Source: a phage
Sequence record: PZ445453.1
Length of the DNA stretch: 64,000 nucleotides
Reading direction: 5' to 3' (one strand)
Positions within the stretch are counted from its first letter, which is position 1. Each line of letters opens with the position of its first letter. The position numbers and the translations under genes are program-made. The notes beneath the pieces are model-generated. The model had not been told where the DNA came from. It saw only the letters and a list, made by a program, of their open reading frames with translations, and searched no databases. Shown here piece after piece: positions 1 to 35,796 of the stretch.

Positions 1-200
1 TCATTACTAAGCTAAATATAATCTATCTAACCTTTAAAACTATAACTATAATCTATCGAATTGTTGCACAAAGTAACTATTAAATTGTTAGTAACATTAC
101 TAAATAATTAATATCCTATCTATTTATGATCTAATCTTTACCTTCCTATCTATTACCTAAATAACCATTTCATACAGAAATCATTTCATACAATAACTAT
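1..200. repeat. AT-rich leader with short direct repeats (CTATCT x4-5; CATTTCATACA x2)
   Basis: Motifs read at ~24-36, 49-61, 113-126, 142-156 and 165-198; no ORF. Confidence 0.5.
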
Positions 201-259
201 AACAAGAAATATAATTAGCAAGCGTATCATTAGCAGCCTATGCCGGACACATAGGCGGC

Positions 260-400
260 TAATAATAACGCAACTACACACCCCACATAATAACCATCAC
301 CGATAGTTATTATTTGTGCTTATGTAGCTTGCAACAATTGCAAGCGCAACAATATACATGGTATATTGTATCCCTTACATTGTTGCGGTGCGTTATTATT
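260..400. repeat. inverted-repeat / palindrome cluster
   Basis: TAATAATAACGCAAC (260-274) vs GTTGCGGTGCGTTATTATT (382-400); internal palindromes TTGCAACAATTGCAA and CAATATAC-ATG-GTATATTG. Confidence 0.5.
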
Positions 401-704
401 AGCTAATATTTGGAACATTGGCTATAATATAAGCTACATATAATAAGCTATTCAATAATAAACATCGTGAACAATGACATTGATGATCATAATGCGCCAC
501 CTTCCAGGGGACGCTATGTGAACACAAAGAAATCTTTCTTGTCAAGAAAAATATCACCATTATTGCGCAAAATTATTTATATCTGAATAGATGGTTTTTC
601 ATACTATTGCCCCATATAACCTATCATTTGTTGAGCCTATTCTCTTAAAAGCGCAATAAATCAGAATTATCTTGATTTTTAGGTAGTTTTATAGTATAGA
701 AAAT

Positions 705-913
705 ATGCAAATGATAATCATTATCAGCTATCTTCCACGGGTGGCACTATTTCACGCCAGATCATTTCATTTGGCAAGGTGTAGATAGATGTTTAGACTT
801 GCCAAGCCATTGATTTACTTAGAATTTATCTGTTTTGTTGTGAGTAGTACCTTTCTTGCTCAGAAAATAATCAAAAGTCTTATAAGTCATTGAATGATAA
901 TGCAAATGATAAT
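705..913. repeat. 14-bp direct repeat ATGCAAATGATAAT (705-718 and 900-913)
   Basis: Exact repeat read in sequence; both copies next to ATGATAAT-like half repeats. Confidence 0.55.
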
Positions 914-1042
914 AATTCTCATTGATATTTGAGGGGGACGGTCGGCAGAAATCGGGGGGCGCTGAAAATCGCGTTAAGCACCTCTCGCAAGCGAGCAGTA
1001 TTTTGCGGCAAGTTATTGATATTATTGGCTTTACGCTTATGA

Positions 1043-1131
1043 AAAGGGGTGTGTCGAAATAAATCGGGTATACCGGAAAATTTTTGTGGTATAGATATTT
1101 ATTTGTCTATATTATGTACAAAGGGGTGTGT
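1043..1131. repeat. direct repeat AAAGGGGTGTGT (1043-1054 and 1120-1131)
   Basis: Exact 12-mer twice, each followed by (C/T)(G/A)AAA(A)TAA, just upstream of the first ORF. Confidence 0.5.
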
Positions 1132-1224
1132 TAAAAATAATAGGTATATATAGAATAATTGATAGGGAAATCCTATACTAATTCCTCCATTAATGATGTT
1201 TCTATGTTACTGTCCTTGTAATAG

Positions 1225-1647
1225 ATGAAAAGACGCTATATGATGTGTGGCATGAAACGTAAATTTATAAAGGAGTCTGATATGTGTGTTCCTCTTAGCA
1301 GTCCACTGCTGTTAGAATTTTACAAAGCATGGATGGAAGATCATTCCTCAATGCATCGTGAGAATGTTGGTTTGTGTAATTGCCTTATGGATTACCTGGC
1401 AACCACTATGTCAAAGAAAAAACCTACGGAAGAAGATATAGAATATTTCAAGATGGTTCGTAGCAAAACGCTGGAAGAGATGAAACTGCAATTCACGTGT
1501 GCTGGGCTATCCTCCTTCCTACCCTTTAATTATGATCTTCTGTGTTATGAAGATGAAGGTAAGACACATTCTTGCCATACCAACCCAAAGAGATTGCAGT
1601 GGGTGAAAGATAGAATCGAAGATGCAAATAATGCTTGCATTGAATAG
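1225..1647 (+). CDS. hypothetical protein, paralog family A member 1
   Basis: 140-aa ORF; shares LLxFY...GLCxCL...PFN...KRxxWVxDR pattern with 3575..3943 and 4567..5151. Confidence 0.55.
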   Translation: MKRRYMMCGMKRKFIKESDMCVPLSSPLLLEFYKAWMEDHSSMHRENVGLCNCLMDYLATTMSKKKPTEEDIEYFKMVRSKTLEEMKLQFTCAGLSSFLPFNYDLLCYEDEGKTHSCHTNPKRLQWVKDRIEDANNACIE

Positions 1648-13544: not shown

Positions 13545-13570
13545 ATAAGAAAAGGGGCTTTCGCCCCCTT
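13545..13570 (-). terminator. intrinsic terminator
   Basis: GGGGC-TTTC-GCCCC hairpin; T-run on minus strand. Confidence 0.6.
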
Positions 13571-15262: not shown

Positions 15263-15311
15263 TTCATCCCAATCTTTCCAAACGCATCTACAAAGTTAAA
15301 CTCTAAACCTT

Positions 15312-18389: not shown

Positions 18390-18593
18390 TTAACTAGCAA
18401 CCGTAACTTCCGAACTTTCTTCTTTCGTACTGTCTACGATATGCCTGGTGGCAATATACGAGACTTGCCAGTTACCATCTGGTGTAGTCTCAATAAGTAC
18501 CCTATCTACTTCGAGAAAATGCAAAAATTCAACCATCGCTCGCTTCGATAGGAATTGTTTTTTAACAGTCTCCTCAAAAGATTGAACTGCCAT
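18390..18593 (-). CDS. hypothetical protein
   Basis: 67-aa ORF. Confidence 0.45.
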   Translation of the reverse strand: MAVQSFEETVKKQFLSKRAMVEFLHFLEVDRVLIETTPDGNWQVSYIATRHIVDSTKEESSEVTVAS

Positions 18594-18602
18594 GTTTCCT
18601 CC

Positions 18603-19265
18603 TTATTTAATATTCAATTTTGCACAAAGACGTTGTACCGCTTTGGCATCGAACAAACTCCCACGAATAGTTCTCTTTCCTGATTCATTCAGATGCTTTG
18701 CAATCGTCATATATGGCGTTTTACAAGCCCTGTATGCAACTAAAGAATCTTTTAAAGAAAGCGCAAACTCTTTTGAGCGTTTTGCTTCTTCCGTTTTCGT
18801 ATAATCTGTTCTTTTGTATTTAGGGTTTGCTGCACCAAGAAGCGTTCCCTTCGCTTTTGCTACCTTAAGGCTCTTCTTAACACGATCAGATATTGCACGA
18901 GCCTCTTCTTCTGCCAGAACTGCTAAAATATTTATTATCATATTTTCAGCGGAGGGCATCGTTGCTATTCGTACATTAATCATCTCTAACAAGGTTGCAA
19001 CAGAAGCTGTGTTACGTCCAAGACGGTCAACCTTAGCAACAACAAGTGTAGCACCTGTTTCTTTGCAAAGATTAACAGCTTTTACAAGCTCTCTACGTTG
19101 CTTCCAATCGCCTTTACCAGAATAAAACTCTGCAAAGCTACCTACAATAGTATAATTTTCTTGTGAATCCAGGAAGCGTTGGATATCTGCTTCCTGTGAT
19201 TCTATACCATACTGGTTGCCTTGTTGTTTCTTCTTAGAAAGTCGATGATACAGTACAAACTTCAT
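18603..19265 (-). CDS. serine recombinase (resolvase/invertase family)
   Basis: N-terminal YHRLS...Q with Ser nucleophile, VDRLGRN motif, C-terminal HTH-like segment. Confidence 0.75.
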   Translation of the reverse strand: MKFVLYHRLSKKKQQGNQYGIESQEADIQRFLDSQENYTIVGSFAEFYSGKGDWKQRRELVKAVNLCKETGATLVVAKVDRLGRNTASVATLLEMINVRIATMPSAENMIINILAVLAEEEARAISDRVKKSLKVAKAKGTLLGAANPKYKRTDYTKTEEAKRSKEFALSLKDSLVAYRACKTPYMTIAKHLNESGKRTIRGSLFDAKAVQRLCAKLNIK

Positions 19266-19322
19266 AATACCCTCCTGTTCTGTTACAGGAAGTATGCACT
19301 ACCTTAACGTTAAAGTCAACAG

Positions 19323-22685: not shown

Positions 22686-22708
22686 TAAAAGGGGCTTTCG
22701 CCCCTTTG
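22686..22708 (-). terminator. intrinsic terminator (bidirectional-looking)
   Basis: AGGGGC-TTTC-GCCCCT hairpin with T-runs on both sides. Confidence 0.6.
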
Positions 22709-35773: not shown

Positions 35774-35796
35774 AAAGGGGCTTTCGCCCCTTTTTA
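35774..35796. terminator. bidirectional intrinsic terminator
   Basis: GGGGC-TTTC-GCCCC hairpin flanked by A-run and T-run. Confidence 0.65.

What the first reader, a model, noticed from the sequence alone, without database searches (positions are those of the whole stretch)
18603..19265. Serine recombinase in an otherwise lytic gene set
A resolvase/invertase-family recombinase (YHRLS...Q, VDRLGRN, C-terminal HTH) sits in the metabolism block. No integrase, attachment site or repressor is evident. It could drive an invertible segment elsewhere, or resolve replication multimers.
Basis: partly seen in the sequence, partly recalled or inferred. Interest (0 to 1): 0.45.

Follow-up and report, generated by a model that had tools for sequence, protein, structure and literature searches.

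The report
Conserved serine recombinase in lytic phage
The gene is a real, apparently active small serine recombinase already annotated in phi92-like lytic coliphages; I found no invertible segment or integration site for it, so its job remains unknown.

Summary
The window is Escherichia phage JohannJBalmer (Bas62, Justusliebigvirus). The ORF at 18603-19265 (- strand, 220 aa) is its annotated 'putative site-specific recombinase', identical to phi92 gp053.

- It matches Pfam Resolvase (E = 8e-22).
- The catalytic residues Y6, R8, S10, D80, R81, R84, E121 and R128 are conserved down to about 31% identity.
- A confident AF2 model shows a C-terminal helical DNA-binding domain. That domain resembles the start of the 'recombinase domain' of large serine integrases, not a Hin-type HTH.

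The gene is syntenic between PhoH and DprA-like genes. It is under strong purifying selection and has its own sigma70-like promoter. It occurs in about 160 phage records, from enterobacterial Stephanstirmvirinae to Vibrio and Shewanella myoviruses.

The invertase reading is not supported:
- Genome-wide inverted repeats are only intrinsic terminators or chance-level matches.
- About 51-56 related genome records are collinear over roughly 135 of 145 kb.
- There are no prophage copies in 5,426 E. coli genomes or 185,579 species genomes.

The genome is linear with a 343-bp direct terminal repeat. My best guess, at low confidence, is an early-acting resolvase-type or joining reaction on phage DNA at a site not yet identified. 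The gene is already known. Its function is open, which makes it moderately interesting.

The parts
18603..19265 (-). Serine recombinase CDS (220 aa; bas62_0194; identical to phi92 gp053)
   Evidence: ORF. Pfam Resolvase E = 8.4e-22. PHROG 125 E = 1.3e-31. 100% aa identity in 56 phage records. GenBank annotation 'putative site-specific recombinase'.
18843..19265 (-). Catalytic domain plus long helix E (residues 1-141)
19236..19238 (-). Codon of the predicted nucleophile Ser10 (TCT) in the motif Y-H-R-L-S
   Evidence: Ser10 is present in at least 90% of 29 family members; the one N-terminally truncated sequence lacks this region.
18618..18791 (-). C-terminal four-helix DNA-binding domain (residues 159-216) with the motif IAxxLNxxGxxTxRG...V.R, typical of the first part of the 'recombinase domain' of large serine recombinases
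19291..19319 (-). Sigma70-like promoter TTGACT-17-CATACT in the only sizeable spacer upstream of the gene
   Evidence: Consensus scan, 9 of 12 matches. An equivalent TTGACA-N16-18-TAnnnT promoter lies in the 50-70-nt spacer upstream of the orthologue in every lineage examined. The function is inferred, not shown.
19271..19292 (-). Dyad CTTCCTGT-aacaga-ACAGGAGG. An anti-Shine-Dalgarno arm overlapping the -10 and transcription start pairs with the ribosome-binding site. It would probably mask translation on read-through transcripts.
   Evidence: Analogous anti-SD/SD pairing occurs in the P0011, P0019 and P0027 lineages with different sequences. Arm mismatches are G.U-compatible on the sense strand. 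The dyad sequence is not conserved between this phage and Klebsiella phi1_175008, although the recognition helix is. This argues for an RNA structure rather than a recombinase site.
18390..18593 (-). Small ORF (67 aa, bas62_0193) immediately downstream, function unknown. It is linked to the recombinase in some lineages only, so it is probably not an obligate partner.
   Evidence: Homologues follow the recombinase in the Justusliebigvirus-like, phi1_175008, P0027 and KP13-16 lineages, but not in Phapecoctavirus or the marine phages. PHROG 27804, unknown function.

Best explanation
The ORF encodes a catalytically competent 'mini' serine recombinase. It has a resolvase-type catalytic domain and helix E, followed by a short helical DNA-binding domain derived from the recombinase domain of large serine integrases. 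It lacks the zinc-ribbon and coiled-coil module.

Shown:
- It is a vertically inherited, syntenic gene of strictly virulent myoviruses (Stephanstirmvirinae and Vibrio/Shewanella relatives of about 130-140 kb).
- It is under strong purifying selection.
- It does not mark an integration module or a detectable invertible segment.

Inferred:
- It is expressed from its own host-type (sigma70-like) promoter, so probably early in infection. Translation is probably masked on read-through transcripts.
- It probably performs a resolvase-type reaction (deletion or fusion between copies of one site in direct orientation) on the phage's own DNA. Examples would be cyclising or joining genomes through the terminal-repeat region, or processing replicative multimers.
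- It probably does not flip a segment.

The target site is unidentified.
For: Identity and competence:
- Pfam, PHROG and PDB matches.
- Catalytic residues invariant or nearly so across 29 sequences down to 31% identity.
- AF2 mean pLDDT 87, with serine-recombinase folds as the top structural matches.

Selection and inheritance:
- dN = 0.10-0.56 while dS is saturated (above 1.7). dN/dS is about 0.07-0.21 where it can be computed.
- 162 phage records carry the gene.
- It is intact in 64 of 65 Phapecoctavirus-type records and in all 56 Justusliebigvirus records.
- It sits between PhoH and DprA-like genes in E. coli, Klebsiella and Shewanella phages and in metagenomic contigs.

Early expression: a sigma70-like promoter lies in the upstream spacer in all lineages examined.

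Not an invertase or integrase:
- No inverted repeats beyond terminators and chance.
- Collinearity of about 51-56 related genome records.
- No copy in E. coli genomes.
- The closest homologues in 185,579 species genomes are 30-41% identical, and none is in Enterobacteria.

Genome form: linear with a 343-bp (329 bp in Phapecoctavirus) direct terminal repeat. This is a substrate on which a recombinase that joins repeats or ends would be useful. Large-serine-type enzymes do not need supercoiled substrates (established knowledge).
Against: - No recombination site was found near the gene, in the terminal repeat or anywhere else. The mechanistic part is inference by exclusion.
- Well-studied phages with short direct terminal repeats (T7, N4) manage without a site-specific recombinase.
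- A single site per linear genome cannot cyclise it unless the site lies in the repeat, and nothing in the repeat looks like a typical 26-50-bp crossover site.
- Small or degenerate sites, rare inversions and inversions under about 3-5 kb in the less closely inspected regions would have escaped my tests.
- One isolate (Schickermooser) has a frameshift-riddled 5' half of the gene. If that is real, the enzyme is dispensable for plaque formation.
Confidence: 0.4

Rival explanations
1. DNA invertase (the Gin/Cin/Hin model, or the Mpi model with remote invertible promoters). The enzyme would flip a phage segment bounded by inverted crossover sites to switch tail fibres or a promoter.
For: The PHROG family is named 'DNA invertase'. 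There is a sub-threshold NCBIfam match to the Mpi master invertase over its full length. A bacterial homologue in Humitalea has four 26-bp dyad sites clustered upstream of its gene. This phage group has a large multi-fibre adsorption apparatus.
Against: - The whole-genome self-blast finds only terminator hairpins.
- Short-range inverted repeats match shuffled expectation, 91 observed against 65-94.
- 26-bp palindromic sites are at the upper edge of the shuffled range and none share half-sites.
- The tail-fibre cluster is collinear in 52 records. Other regions are collinear in 51-56 records.
- The one notable 15-bp inverted-repeat pair (window 258-403) has the same orientation in all 56 records.
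- There is no HTH_7 domain.
Confidence: 0.07
2. Host-directed enzyme. This early protein would cut or rearrange host DNA, or the DNA of a resident mobile element or defence locus, as part of takeover or counter-defence.
For: It has an early-type promoter. It lies in a block rich in auxiliary or counter-defence-type genes: methyltransferases, sirtuin, Ser/Thr phosphatase, PhoH and DprA-like. No target was found in the phage genome.
Against: The gene is conserved from Escherichia and Klebsiella phages to Vibrio and Shewanella phages. A shared host target is hard to imagine unless it is a universal gene. There is no PADLOC match. There is no precedent that I know of. It was not tested here.
Confidence: 0.18
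3. Integrase for a cryptic lysogenic or pseudolysogenic state.
For: The second-best PHROG match is 'integrase'. The DNA-binding domain is related to large serine integrases.
Against: - The protein is 220 aa and lacks the zinc-ribbon and coiled-coil module that defines integrases.
- No repressor or excisionase is annotated.
- There is no match in 5,426 E. coli genomes.
- No close relative exists in 185,579 species genomes.
- The phages are described as strictly lytic.
Confidence: 0.03
4. Non-catalytic or vestigial. Either a DNA-binding regulator that keeps the recombinase fold, or the remnant of a mobile element with no role for the phage.
For: No substrate was found. A possible pseudogene exists in one isolate.
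Against: All catalytic residues are conserved over deep divergence. dN/dS is about 0.1-0.2. The synteny is stable, with no flanking repeats or target duplications. The frameshifted allele is unique among 65 records and could be sequencing error.
Confidence: 0.1

Closest known systems
phi92 gp053 / PHROG 125 'DNA invertase' orthologues in Stephanstirmvirinae (Justusliebigvirus, Phapecoctavirus and relatives)
   Same: 100% identical protein in 56 records, and 51-78% identical in other genera of the subfamily. Same position between PhoH and DprA-like genes. Same promoter-bearing upstream spacer.
   Different: Nothing differs; this is the same gene. Its names ('DNA invertase', 'resolvase', 'integrase', 'hypothetical') are automatic annotations. 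The only functional statement I found is a speculation about concatemers (PMC10282059).
Small resolvases (Tn3 / gamma-delta resolvase, Sin)
   Same: These are the best sequence-profile matches for the catalytic domain, E = 4e-17 to 1e-15. They share the same catalytic residues and helix E, and are of similar size.
   Different: The phage protein has no HTH_7 domain, no multi-subsite res region next to the gene and no transposon or plasmid context. It has a roughly 10-residue insertion after Ser10, as in large serine recombinases.
Hin/Gin/Cin/Pin DNA invertases
   Same: Serine recombinase fold and phage context (Gin in Mu, Cin in P1). Weak sequence match to Gin, E about 1e-3.
   Different: No adjacent invertible segment, no 26-bp inverted crossover sites and no HTH_7. 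The sequence relationship is much weaker than the relationship I recall within that family (not tested here).
Large serine integrases (Bxb1, SPbeta SprA, phiC31, A118)
   Different: The phage protein is less than half the length. It has no zinc-ribbon domain or coiled coil, so no built-in attP/attB selectivity or directionality control. There is no att site and no lysogeny.
Mpi master invertase (Bacteroides) and YneB resolvase-like proteins (Bacillus)
   Same: Similar length (about 200-215 aa), and the match runs over nearly the whole model (NF009949 positions 5-197 of 203; NF049883 positions 2-190 of 211).
   Different: Scores are far below the curated cut-offs (33.5 against 272 bits; 29.8 against 175 bits), so it is not a member. 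The multiple invertible promoters expected of an Mpi-type system (as I recall it; not checked here) were not seen.
P1 Cre/lox (functional analogy only)
   Same: If the cyclisation hypothesis holds, this would be a phage-encoded site-specific recombinase that joins terminally repeated ends after injection.
   Different: Cre is a tyrosine recombinase. P1 is temperate with about 10 kb of terminal redundancy. No lox-like site was identified here. The analogy is purely hypothetical.

Membership tests
Serine recombinase superfamily (Pfam PF00239) | Significant match to the resolvase catalytic-domain model above the gathering score | tested here: met
   78.3 bits against a cut-off of 23.3, E = 8.4e-22, residues 4-141. 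All 29 family members match.
Serine recombinase superfamily (Pfam PF00239) | Nucleophilic serine in a Y-x-R-x-S motif, plus the D-R-x-x-R and helix-E acidic/arginine residues (gamma-delta Y6, R8, S10, D67, R68, R71, E118, R125) | tested here: met
   Y6, R8, S10, D80, R81, R84, E121 and R128 are invariant or at least 90% conserved. The mapping to gamma-delta numbering is inferred from the HMMER alignments (the R81/R84 region is aligned directly; E121/R128 follow from the offset).
Serine recombinase superfamily (Pfam PF00239) | Alpha/beta catalytic fold followed by a long helix E | tested here: met
Serine recombinase superfamily (Pfam PF00239) | Catalyses site-specific strand exchange through a 5'-phosphoserine intermediate | not testable with these tools
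   Needs biochemistry.
DNA invertases (Hin/Gin/Cin/Pin) | C-terminal HTH_7-type domain | tested here: not met
   No HTH_7 hit for the protein at E <= 1, nor among the families listed for the 29 members.
DNA invertases (Hin/Gin/Cin/Pin) | Invertible segment bounded by inverted ~26-bp crossover sites, usually next to the gene | tested here: not met
   No inverted repeats beyond terminators and chance. No orientation differences among about 51-56 related genome records.
DNA invertases (Hin/Gin/Cin/Pin) | Fis-dependent recombinational enhancer | not tested
   No reliable sequence test is available.
Tn3/gamma-delta/Sin resolvases | res region with several dimer-binding subsites adjacent to the gene, in a transposon or plasmid | tested here: not met
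   The 57-nt upstream spacer holds a promoter and an SD-masking dyad that is not conserved between close relatives. The context is a syntenic phage gene block.
Large serine recombinases (phage integrases) | More than ~400 aa with a full recombinase domain, a zinc-ribbon domain and a coiled coil | tested here: not met
   220 aa. Only a four-helix remnant of the recombinase domain is present.
Large serine recombinases (phage integrases) | attP near the gene and integrated prophage forms | tested here: not met
   No match in E. coli genomes. The closest bacterial homologues are 30-41% identical and occur in unrelated taxa.
Mpi (NF009949) and YneB (NF049883) families | Score above the curated NCBIfam cut-off | tested here: not met
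   33.5 against 272 bits, and 29.8 against 175 bits.
IS607-type serine transposases | N-terminal MerR-like HTH preceding the catalytic domain | tested here: not met
   The catalytic domain starts at residue 1-4 and the DNA-binding domain is C-terminal.
PHROG 125 / phi92 gp053 orthologous group | Full-length profile match and orthology by identity and synteny | tested here: met
   E = 1.3e-31 over residues 1-212. 100% identity to phi92 gp053. Shared neighbourhood.

The most novel reading that the evidence does not exclude
The enzyme would be a dedicated genome-end recombinase of virulent myoviruses with direct terminal repeats. It would be a minimal, directionless derivative of large serine integrases, made from a host-type promoter right after injection. 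It would recombine a site in or beside the 343-bp terminal repeat, possibly involving the conserved cloverleaf element 230 bp away. The result would be to cyclise incoming genomes or to build or resolve concatemer junctions. That would be a Cre/lox-like step in a strictly lytic phage.
Probability: 0.1. Interest if true: 0.65.

Novelty: already known. Interest (0 to 1): 0.3.

Why it matters
As a sequence feature this is ordinary. The gene is annotated in this very genome and in more than 150 others.

What stays open is why a whole lineage of strictly lytic phages keeps an apparently active site-specific recombinase under strong selection. These phages have linear genomes with terminal repeats, and there is no inversion, integration or plasmid stage to serve.

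A real answer would add a step to the replication or takeover cycle of a phage group widely used in phage-therapy collections. Candidate answers are genome cyclisation, concatemer handling and host DNA manipulation.

It could also yield a very small recombinase of the large-serine type without directionality control, which may be useful as a genetic tool.

It matters in practice too. Screening software flags such genes as 'lysogeny-associated'. The evidence here says this gene is not an integration function.

Tried and rejected
1. Inverted repeats in the window and the whole rebuilt genome. The only significant hits are the GGGGCGAAAGCCCC terminator hairpins.

2. A PhaseFinder-style scan for short inverted repeats 30-1500 bp apart gave 91 pairs, against 65-94 in shuffles.

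3. A scan for 26-bp dyad sites (12+2+12) gave 13, against 2-13 in shuffles. None share half-sites.

4. The upstream dyads as res-like or operator sites were rejected. Their sequences differ between close relatives that share the same recognition helix. Their arm mismatches are G.U-compatible. They pair an anti-SD with the SD, so an RNA structure is more likely.

5. The 15-bp inverted-repeat pair at window 258-403 as an invertible element was rejected. It has the same orientation in all 56 records. My first junction-pattern test in viral contigs was uninformative because the arms are perfect inverted repeats.

6. The 2.1-kb Dcm-methylase indel near the gene is not a recombinase product. The junction lies in a ~25-bp imperfect direct repeat at gene ends, which points to ordinary homology-driven deletion.

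7. The downstream 67-aa ORF as an obligate partner or directionality factor was rejected, because it is absent from Phapecoctavirus and the marine phages.

8. Prophage or integrated copies: none found.

9. A defence-system link: no PADLOC hit.

10. The Schickermooser frameshifted allele as evidence of dispensability is unsafe. It is unique among 65 records and may be sequencing error.

11. Literature searches found no functional data. The Bas60 papers concern other genes.

12. The afdb50 fold library was unavailable. The Rfam search of the terminal region gave nothing meaningful.

Full report
WHAT THE WINDOW IS

The 8 kb around the finding is 100% identical to Escherichia phage JohannJBalmer (Bas62, MZ501084.1; Justusliebigvirus, Stephanstirmvirinae). 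It is about 98% identical to some 55 other phi92-like genomes.

Window position 1 is record position 90312. The window runs past the end of the record into the terminase, portal and capsid genes.

The ORF at 18603-19265 on the minus strand is bas62_0194, annotated 'putative site-specific recombinase'. Its protein is 100% identical in 56 phage records, including phi92 gp053.

THE OBSERVATION

The gene is real and the family assignment is sound.
- Pfam Resolvase: E = 8.4e-22, residues 4-141.
- PHROG 125 'DNA invertase': E = 1.3e-31.
- PDB profile hits to Tn3 and gamma-delta resolvases and to Sin: 4e-17 to 1e-15.
- The quoted motifs are at residues 6-10 (YHRLS) and 79-85 (VDRLGRN).

I aligned 29 family members reaching down to 31% identity. 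The residues that define serine-recombinase chemistry are invariant or nearly so: Y6, R8, S10, R57, D80, R81, R84, E121 and R128. From the alignments, these correspond to gamma-delta resolvase Y6, R8, S10, R45, D67, R68, R71, E118 and R125.

An AlphaFold model built on that alignment is confident, with mean pLDDT 87. It shows the catalytic domain, a long helix E (108-138), a flexible linker and four C-terminal helices (159-216).

THE C-TERMINAL DOMAIN

- 20 of 29 members weakly match Pfam PF07508 'Recombinase'.
- The segment carries the IAxxLNxxGxxTxRG...V.R signature of that domain.
- The spacing after Ser10 (S-x13-Q) is also of the large-serine type.

The protein is best described as a minimal serine recombinase. 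It has a catalytic domain plus a trimmed recombinase-domain HTH, and lacks the zinc-ribbon and coiled-coil module that gives integrases their site selectivity and directionality.

NCBIfam finds only sub-threshold similarity to CcrB, the Mpi master invertase and YneB. It is not a member of those families.

DISTRIBUTION, INHERITANCE AND SELECTION

tblastn finds the gene in 162 phage records.

| Group | Identity to this protein |
|---|---|
| Justusliebigvirus | 99-100% |
| Klebsiella phi1_175008-like | 78% |
| Phapecoctavirus | 57% |
| Klebsiella KP13-16 | 51% |
| Vibrio and Shewanella myoviruses of about 130-139 kb | 30-37% over the full length (49% over the N-terminal two thirds in Shewanella phage 1/40) |

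More distant copies occur in Cellulophaga, Arthrobacter and Microcystis phages. Metagenomic proteins fill the identity range from 88% down to 31%, many of them on contigs of 135-157 kb.

The gene sits downstream of PhoH in Escherichia and Klebsiella phages, in three metagenomic lineages and in Shewanella phage 1/40. A DprA-like gene lies downstream where one is annotated.

Synonymous sites are saturated (dS above 1.7) while dN is 0.10-0.56. Where it can be computed, dN/dS is about 0.07-0.21.

The gene is intact in all 56 Justusliebigvirus records and in 64 of 65 Phapecoctavirus-type records. The exception, Schickermooser, has about ten small indels in the 5' half. That may be sequencing error.

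This is a vertically inherited, selected gene of a deep lineage of virulent phages. It is not a recently acquired mobile element.

EXPRESSION SIGNALS

Genes in this block are tightly packed, but a spacer of about 50-70 nt precedes the recombinase gene in most lineages examined. Every lineage has a sigma70-type promoter upstream (TTGACA-N16-18-TAnnnT). Here it is TTGACT-17-CATACT at 19319-19291.

A dyad always overlaps the promoter. Its left arm lies in the spacer or -10 region, and its right arm lies in the 5' UTR, often covering the Shine-Dalgarno sequence. Here it is CTTCCTGT-aacaga-ACAGGAGG at 19292-19271.

I considered these dyads as res-like recombinase sites and rejected that, for four reasons:
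- The arm spacing varies from 5 to 37 nt.
- The internal arm mismatches are G.U-compatible on the sense strand.
- The arm sequences look like anti-SD sequences.
- The dyad sequence is not conserved between this phage and Klebsiella phi1_175008, although the putative recognition helix is nearly identical.

The likely meaning, which is inferred, is that the gene is transcribed by host RNA polymerase early in infection. Read-through transcripts from upstream would carry a masked ribosome-binding site.

IS THERE AN INVERTIBLE SEGMENT?

I rebuilt the complete 144.8-kb genome from the window and two fetched stretches.

Repeat scans:
- The self-blast gives inverted matches only at a family of intrinsic terminators (GGGGCGAAAGCCCC plus a T-run) and at chance-level 16-25-mers.
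- A scan for inverted repeats of at least 11 bp lying 30-1500 bp apart gives 91 pairs, against 65-94 in shuffled genomes.
- A scan for 26-bp dyad sites gives 13, against 2-13 in shuffles, with no shared half-sites.

Comparative test. If a segment flipped at appreciable frequency, independent assemblies should differ in orientation. They do not.
- Queries of 8, 14, 24, 24 and 25 kb covered the recombinase neighbourhood, the tail-fibre and baseplate cluster, the nucleotide-metabolism block, the helicase/NrdD block and the early left arm.
- For each query, 51-55 of about 57 Justusliebigvirus records contain at least 80% of the query in one collinear place.
- In the two searches where I listed the records, those with two places are records cut by their own ends.

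The repeat-rich early region was searched too, but its repeats and record boundaries make the result uninformative about inversions.

The only eye-catching short inverted-repeat pair has 15-bp perfect arms 116 bp apart, at window 258-272 and 389-403. It has the same orientation in all 56 records.

Limits of these tests:
- About 12 kb (record 38-50 kb) was not queried.
- Only the top hits cover window 50-64 kb.
- Inversions under about 3-5 kb in the regions judged from summary counts alone could be missed.
- Very rare events could also be missed.

NOT AN INTEGRASE

The 2.9 kb around the gene has no match in 5,426 complete E. coli genomes.

In one genome for each of 185,579 bacterial and archaeal species, the closest relatives are 30-41% identical. 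They lie in Alphaproteobacteria and Cytophagales, not Enterobacteria.

No integrase, excisionase or repressor appears in the parts of the record's annotation that I inspected.

GENOME FORM

Salmonella phage UAB_1, a Justusliebigvirus, is deposited with identical 343-bp direct terminal repeats. BME3 has 342-bp repeats by PhageTerm (PMC12210895). Stephanstirmvirinae in general are said to end in direct terminal repeats (PMC12695924). The Phapecoctavirus Schickermooser record carries a 329-bp repeat at the homologous place.

The repeat maps to window 634-976. The physical ends of the virion DNA therefore lie inside this window. In UAB_1 the recombinase gene is about 20 kb from the left end.

'Resolving circular replication multimers' therefore presupposes a circular stage that has not been shown for these phages.

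WHAT IT MOST LIKELY DOES

Shown:
- An apparently active serine recombinase.
- Conserved and under selection in a virulent lineage with direct terminal repeats.
- No detectable invertible segment, att site or prophage form.

Inferred:
- Early expression, and action on phage DNA in a resolvase-type (direct-repeat) or intermolecular joining reaction.
- This could be at the terminal-repeat region, giving cyclisation or concatemer formation. It could be on replicative multimers.
- An enzyme of the large-serine type without a coiled coil should recombine identical sites on linear DNA without accessory topology (established knowledge about that family).

I give this about 0.4 overall. The weight rests mostly on the parts that are shown, and the specific mechanism deserves no more than about 0.25-0.3. 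No site was found, and model phages with short direct terminal repeats do without such an enzyme.

Rivals:
- A host-directed role (0.18).
- A non-catalytic or vestigial protein (0.10).
- An invertase (0.07).
- An integrase (0.03).

The only statement in the literature I found is a speculation that it 'keeps concatemers as single genomes' (PMC10282059).

BACTERIAL COUSINS

Two of the bacterial homologues do have convincing sites next to the gene.
- Humitalea has four copies of a 26-bp dyad, GGAAGGTAnAGTCnGCTnTACCTTCC, within 2 kb upstream. None are expected by chance.
- A Pseudolabrys contig has a perfect 19+2+19 palindrome 57 bp upstream.

This architecture of serine recombinase can therefore work on hix-like sites close to the gene. 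That makes the absence of any such site near the phage gene more notable.

VERDICT

The finding is correct as an observation and already known as an annotation. The suggested invertase role is not supported. The resolvase role is possible but needs reframing for a linear genome with terminal repeats.

Interest is moderate to low (0.3). The open question is why strictly lytic phages keep this enzyme. It is real, and it can be tested directly with a Ser10Ala mutant, read-level junction analysis and binding-site mapping.

Noticed in passing
window 634-976: The 343-bp direct terminal repeat of Justusliebigvirus maps here, present as a single copy in this assembly. It was identified from the annotated, identical end repeats of Salmonella phage UAB_1. 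The physical ends of the virion DNA therefore lie inside the window, in a ~1.3-kb stretch (window 1-1280) with no substantial annotated genes. Phapecoctavirus Schickermooser has a 329-bp repeat at the homologous position, only about 70% identical.
   Followed up: partly
window 258-403: A 146-nt non-coding element with an outer 15-bp perfect inverted repeat (GCTAATAATAACGCA / TGCGTTATTATTAGC). It encloses three small palindromes and folds as a cloverleaf (DNA fold -36.6 kcal/mol, z = -7.0). It is the best-conserved non-coding block against Phapecoctavirus (81-84%), and the outer stem is kept by compensatory changes (CGCA/TGCG to GCCA/TGGC). It lies about 230 bp left of the terminal repeat and has the same orientation in 56 genomes. 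There is no Rfam match. It might be a packaging or repeat-duplication hairpin, an origin or an ncRNA.
   Followed up: partly
window 707-725 and 902-920; also record 79030-79124 (L011 29030-29124) and record 90160: Fur-box-like sequences (for example GCAAATGATAATCATTATC, 17 of 19 matches to the E. coli Fur consensus) occur twice in the terminal repeat and at equivalent places in the Schickermooser repeat. A cluster of four lies within 95 bp in a non-coding region at about 79 kb. Genome-wide there are 53 hits at 14 of 19 or better, against 10-27 in shuffles. They could be host Fur sites or sites for a phage DNA-binding protein.
   Followed up: partly
window 19271-19319 (- strand): The recombinase has its own sigma70-like promoter. 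An anti-SD arm at the -10 and transcription start pairs with its Shine-Dalgarno sequence. This recalls what I remember of phage T4 genes that are translated only from transcripts started at the proximal promoter. The arrangement recurs with different sequences in other lineages. In the Vibrio and Shewanella phages the hairpin is followed by a T-run, as if a terminator enclosed the promoter.
   Followed up: partly
window 15263-15291: This phage lacks about 2.1 kb that most relatives carry, holding a Dcm-like C5-cytosine methyltransferase and two small ORFs. The junction lies in a ~25-bp imperfect direct repeat (TTCATCCCAnnnTTCCnAACGCAT) found at both ends of the missing segment in phage PaulScherrer. 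This points to homology-driven deletion.
   Followed up: yes
L017 1370-1800 (NC_048196.1, phage Schickermooser): The 5' half of this phage's recombinase gene carries about ten small indels (22 gap columns in 400 nt) that destroy the frame, including the Ser10 region. The 3' half is clean. The allele is unique among 65 Phapecoctavirus-type records. It is either a sequencing artefact or an isolate that lives without the enzyme.
   Followed up: partly
window 13554-13567, 22691-22704, 35777-35790 (- strand) and other genome sites: A family of near-identical intrinsic terminators (AAAGGGGCGAAAGCCCCTTT plus T-run) recurs between genes on the coding strand. It accounts for all the 'significant' inverted and direct short repeats in the genome self-comparison.
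   Followed up: yes
L028 2017-3527; L030 3905-3944: Bacterial homologues have clear candidate recombination sites next to the gene. Humitalea has four 26-bp dyad sites within 2 kb upstream. A Pseudolabrys contig has a perfect 19+2+19-bp palindrome 57 bp upstream of the gene.
   Followed up: partly
records MG065639, MG065645, MG065656, MG065689: Several unannotated records labelled 'Campylobacter phage' are about 98% identical to these E. coli phages over tens of kb. They are probably mislabelled or contaminant assemblies.
   Followed up: no
record 78.8-88.3 kb (L011 28800-38300), just left of the window: An array of many very small ORFs, each preceded by a repeated 40-85-bp promoter-like block in direct orientation. 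It recalls the host-takeover modules next to the terminal repeats of other large virulent phages.
   Followed up: no
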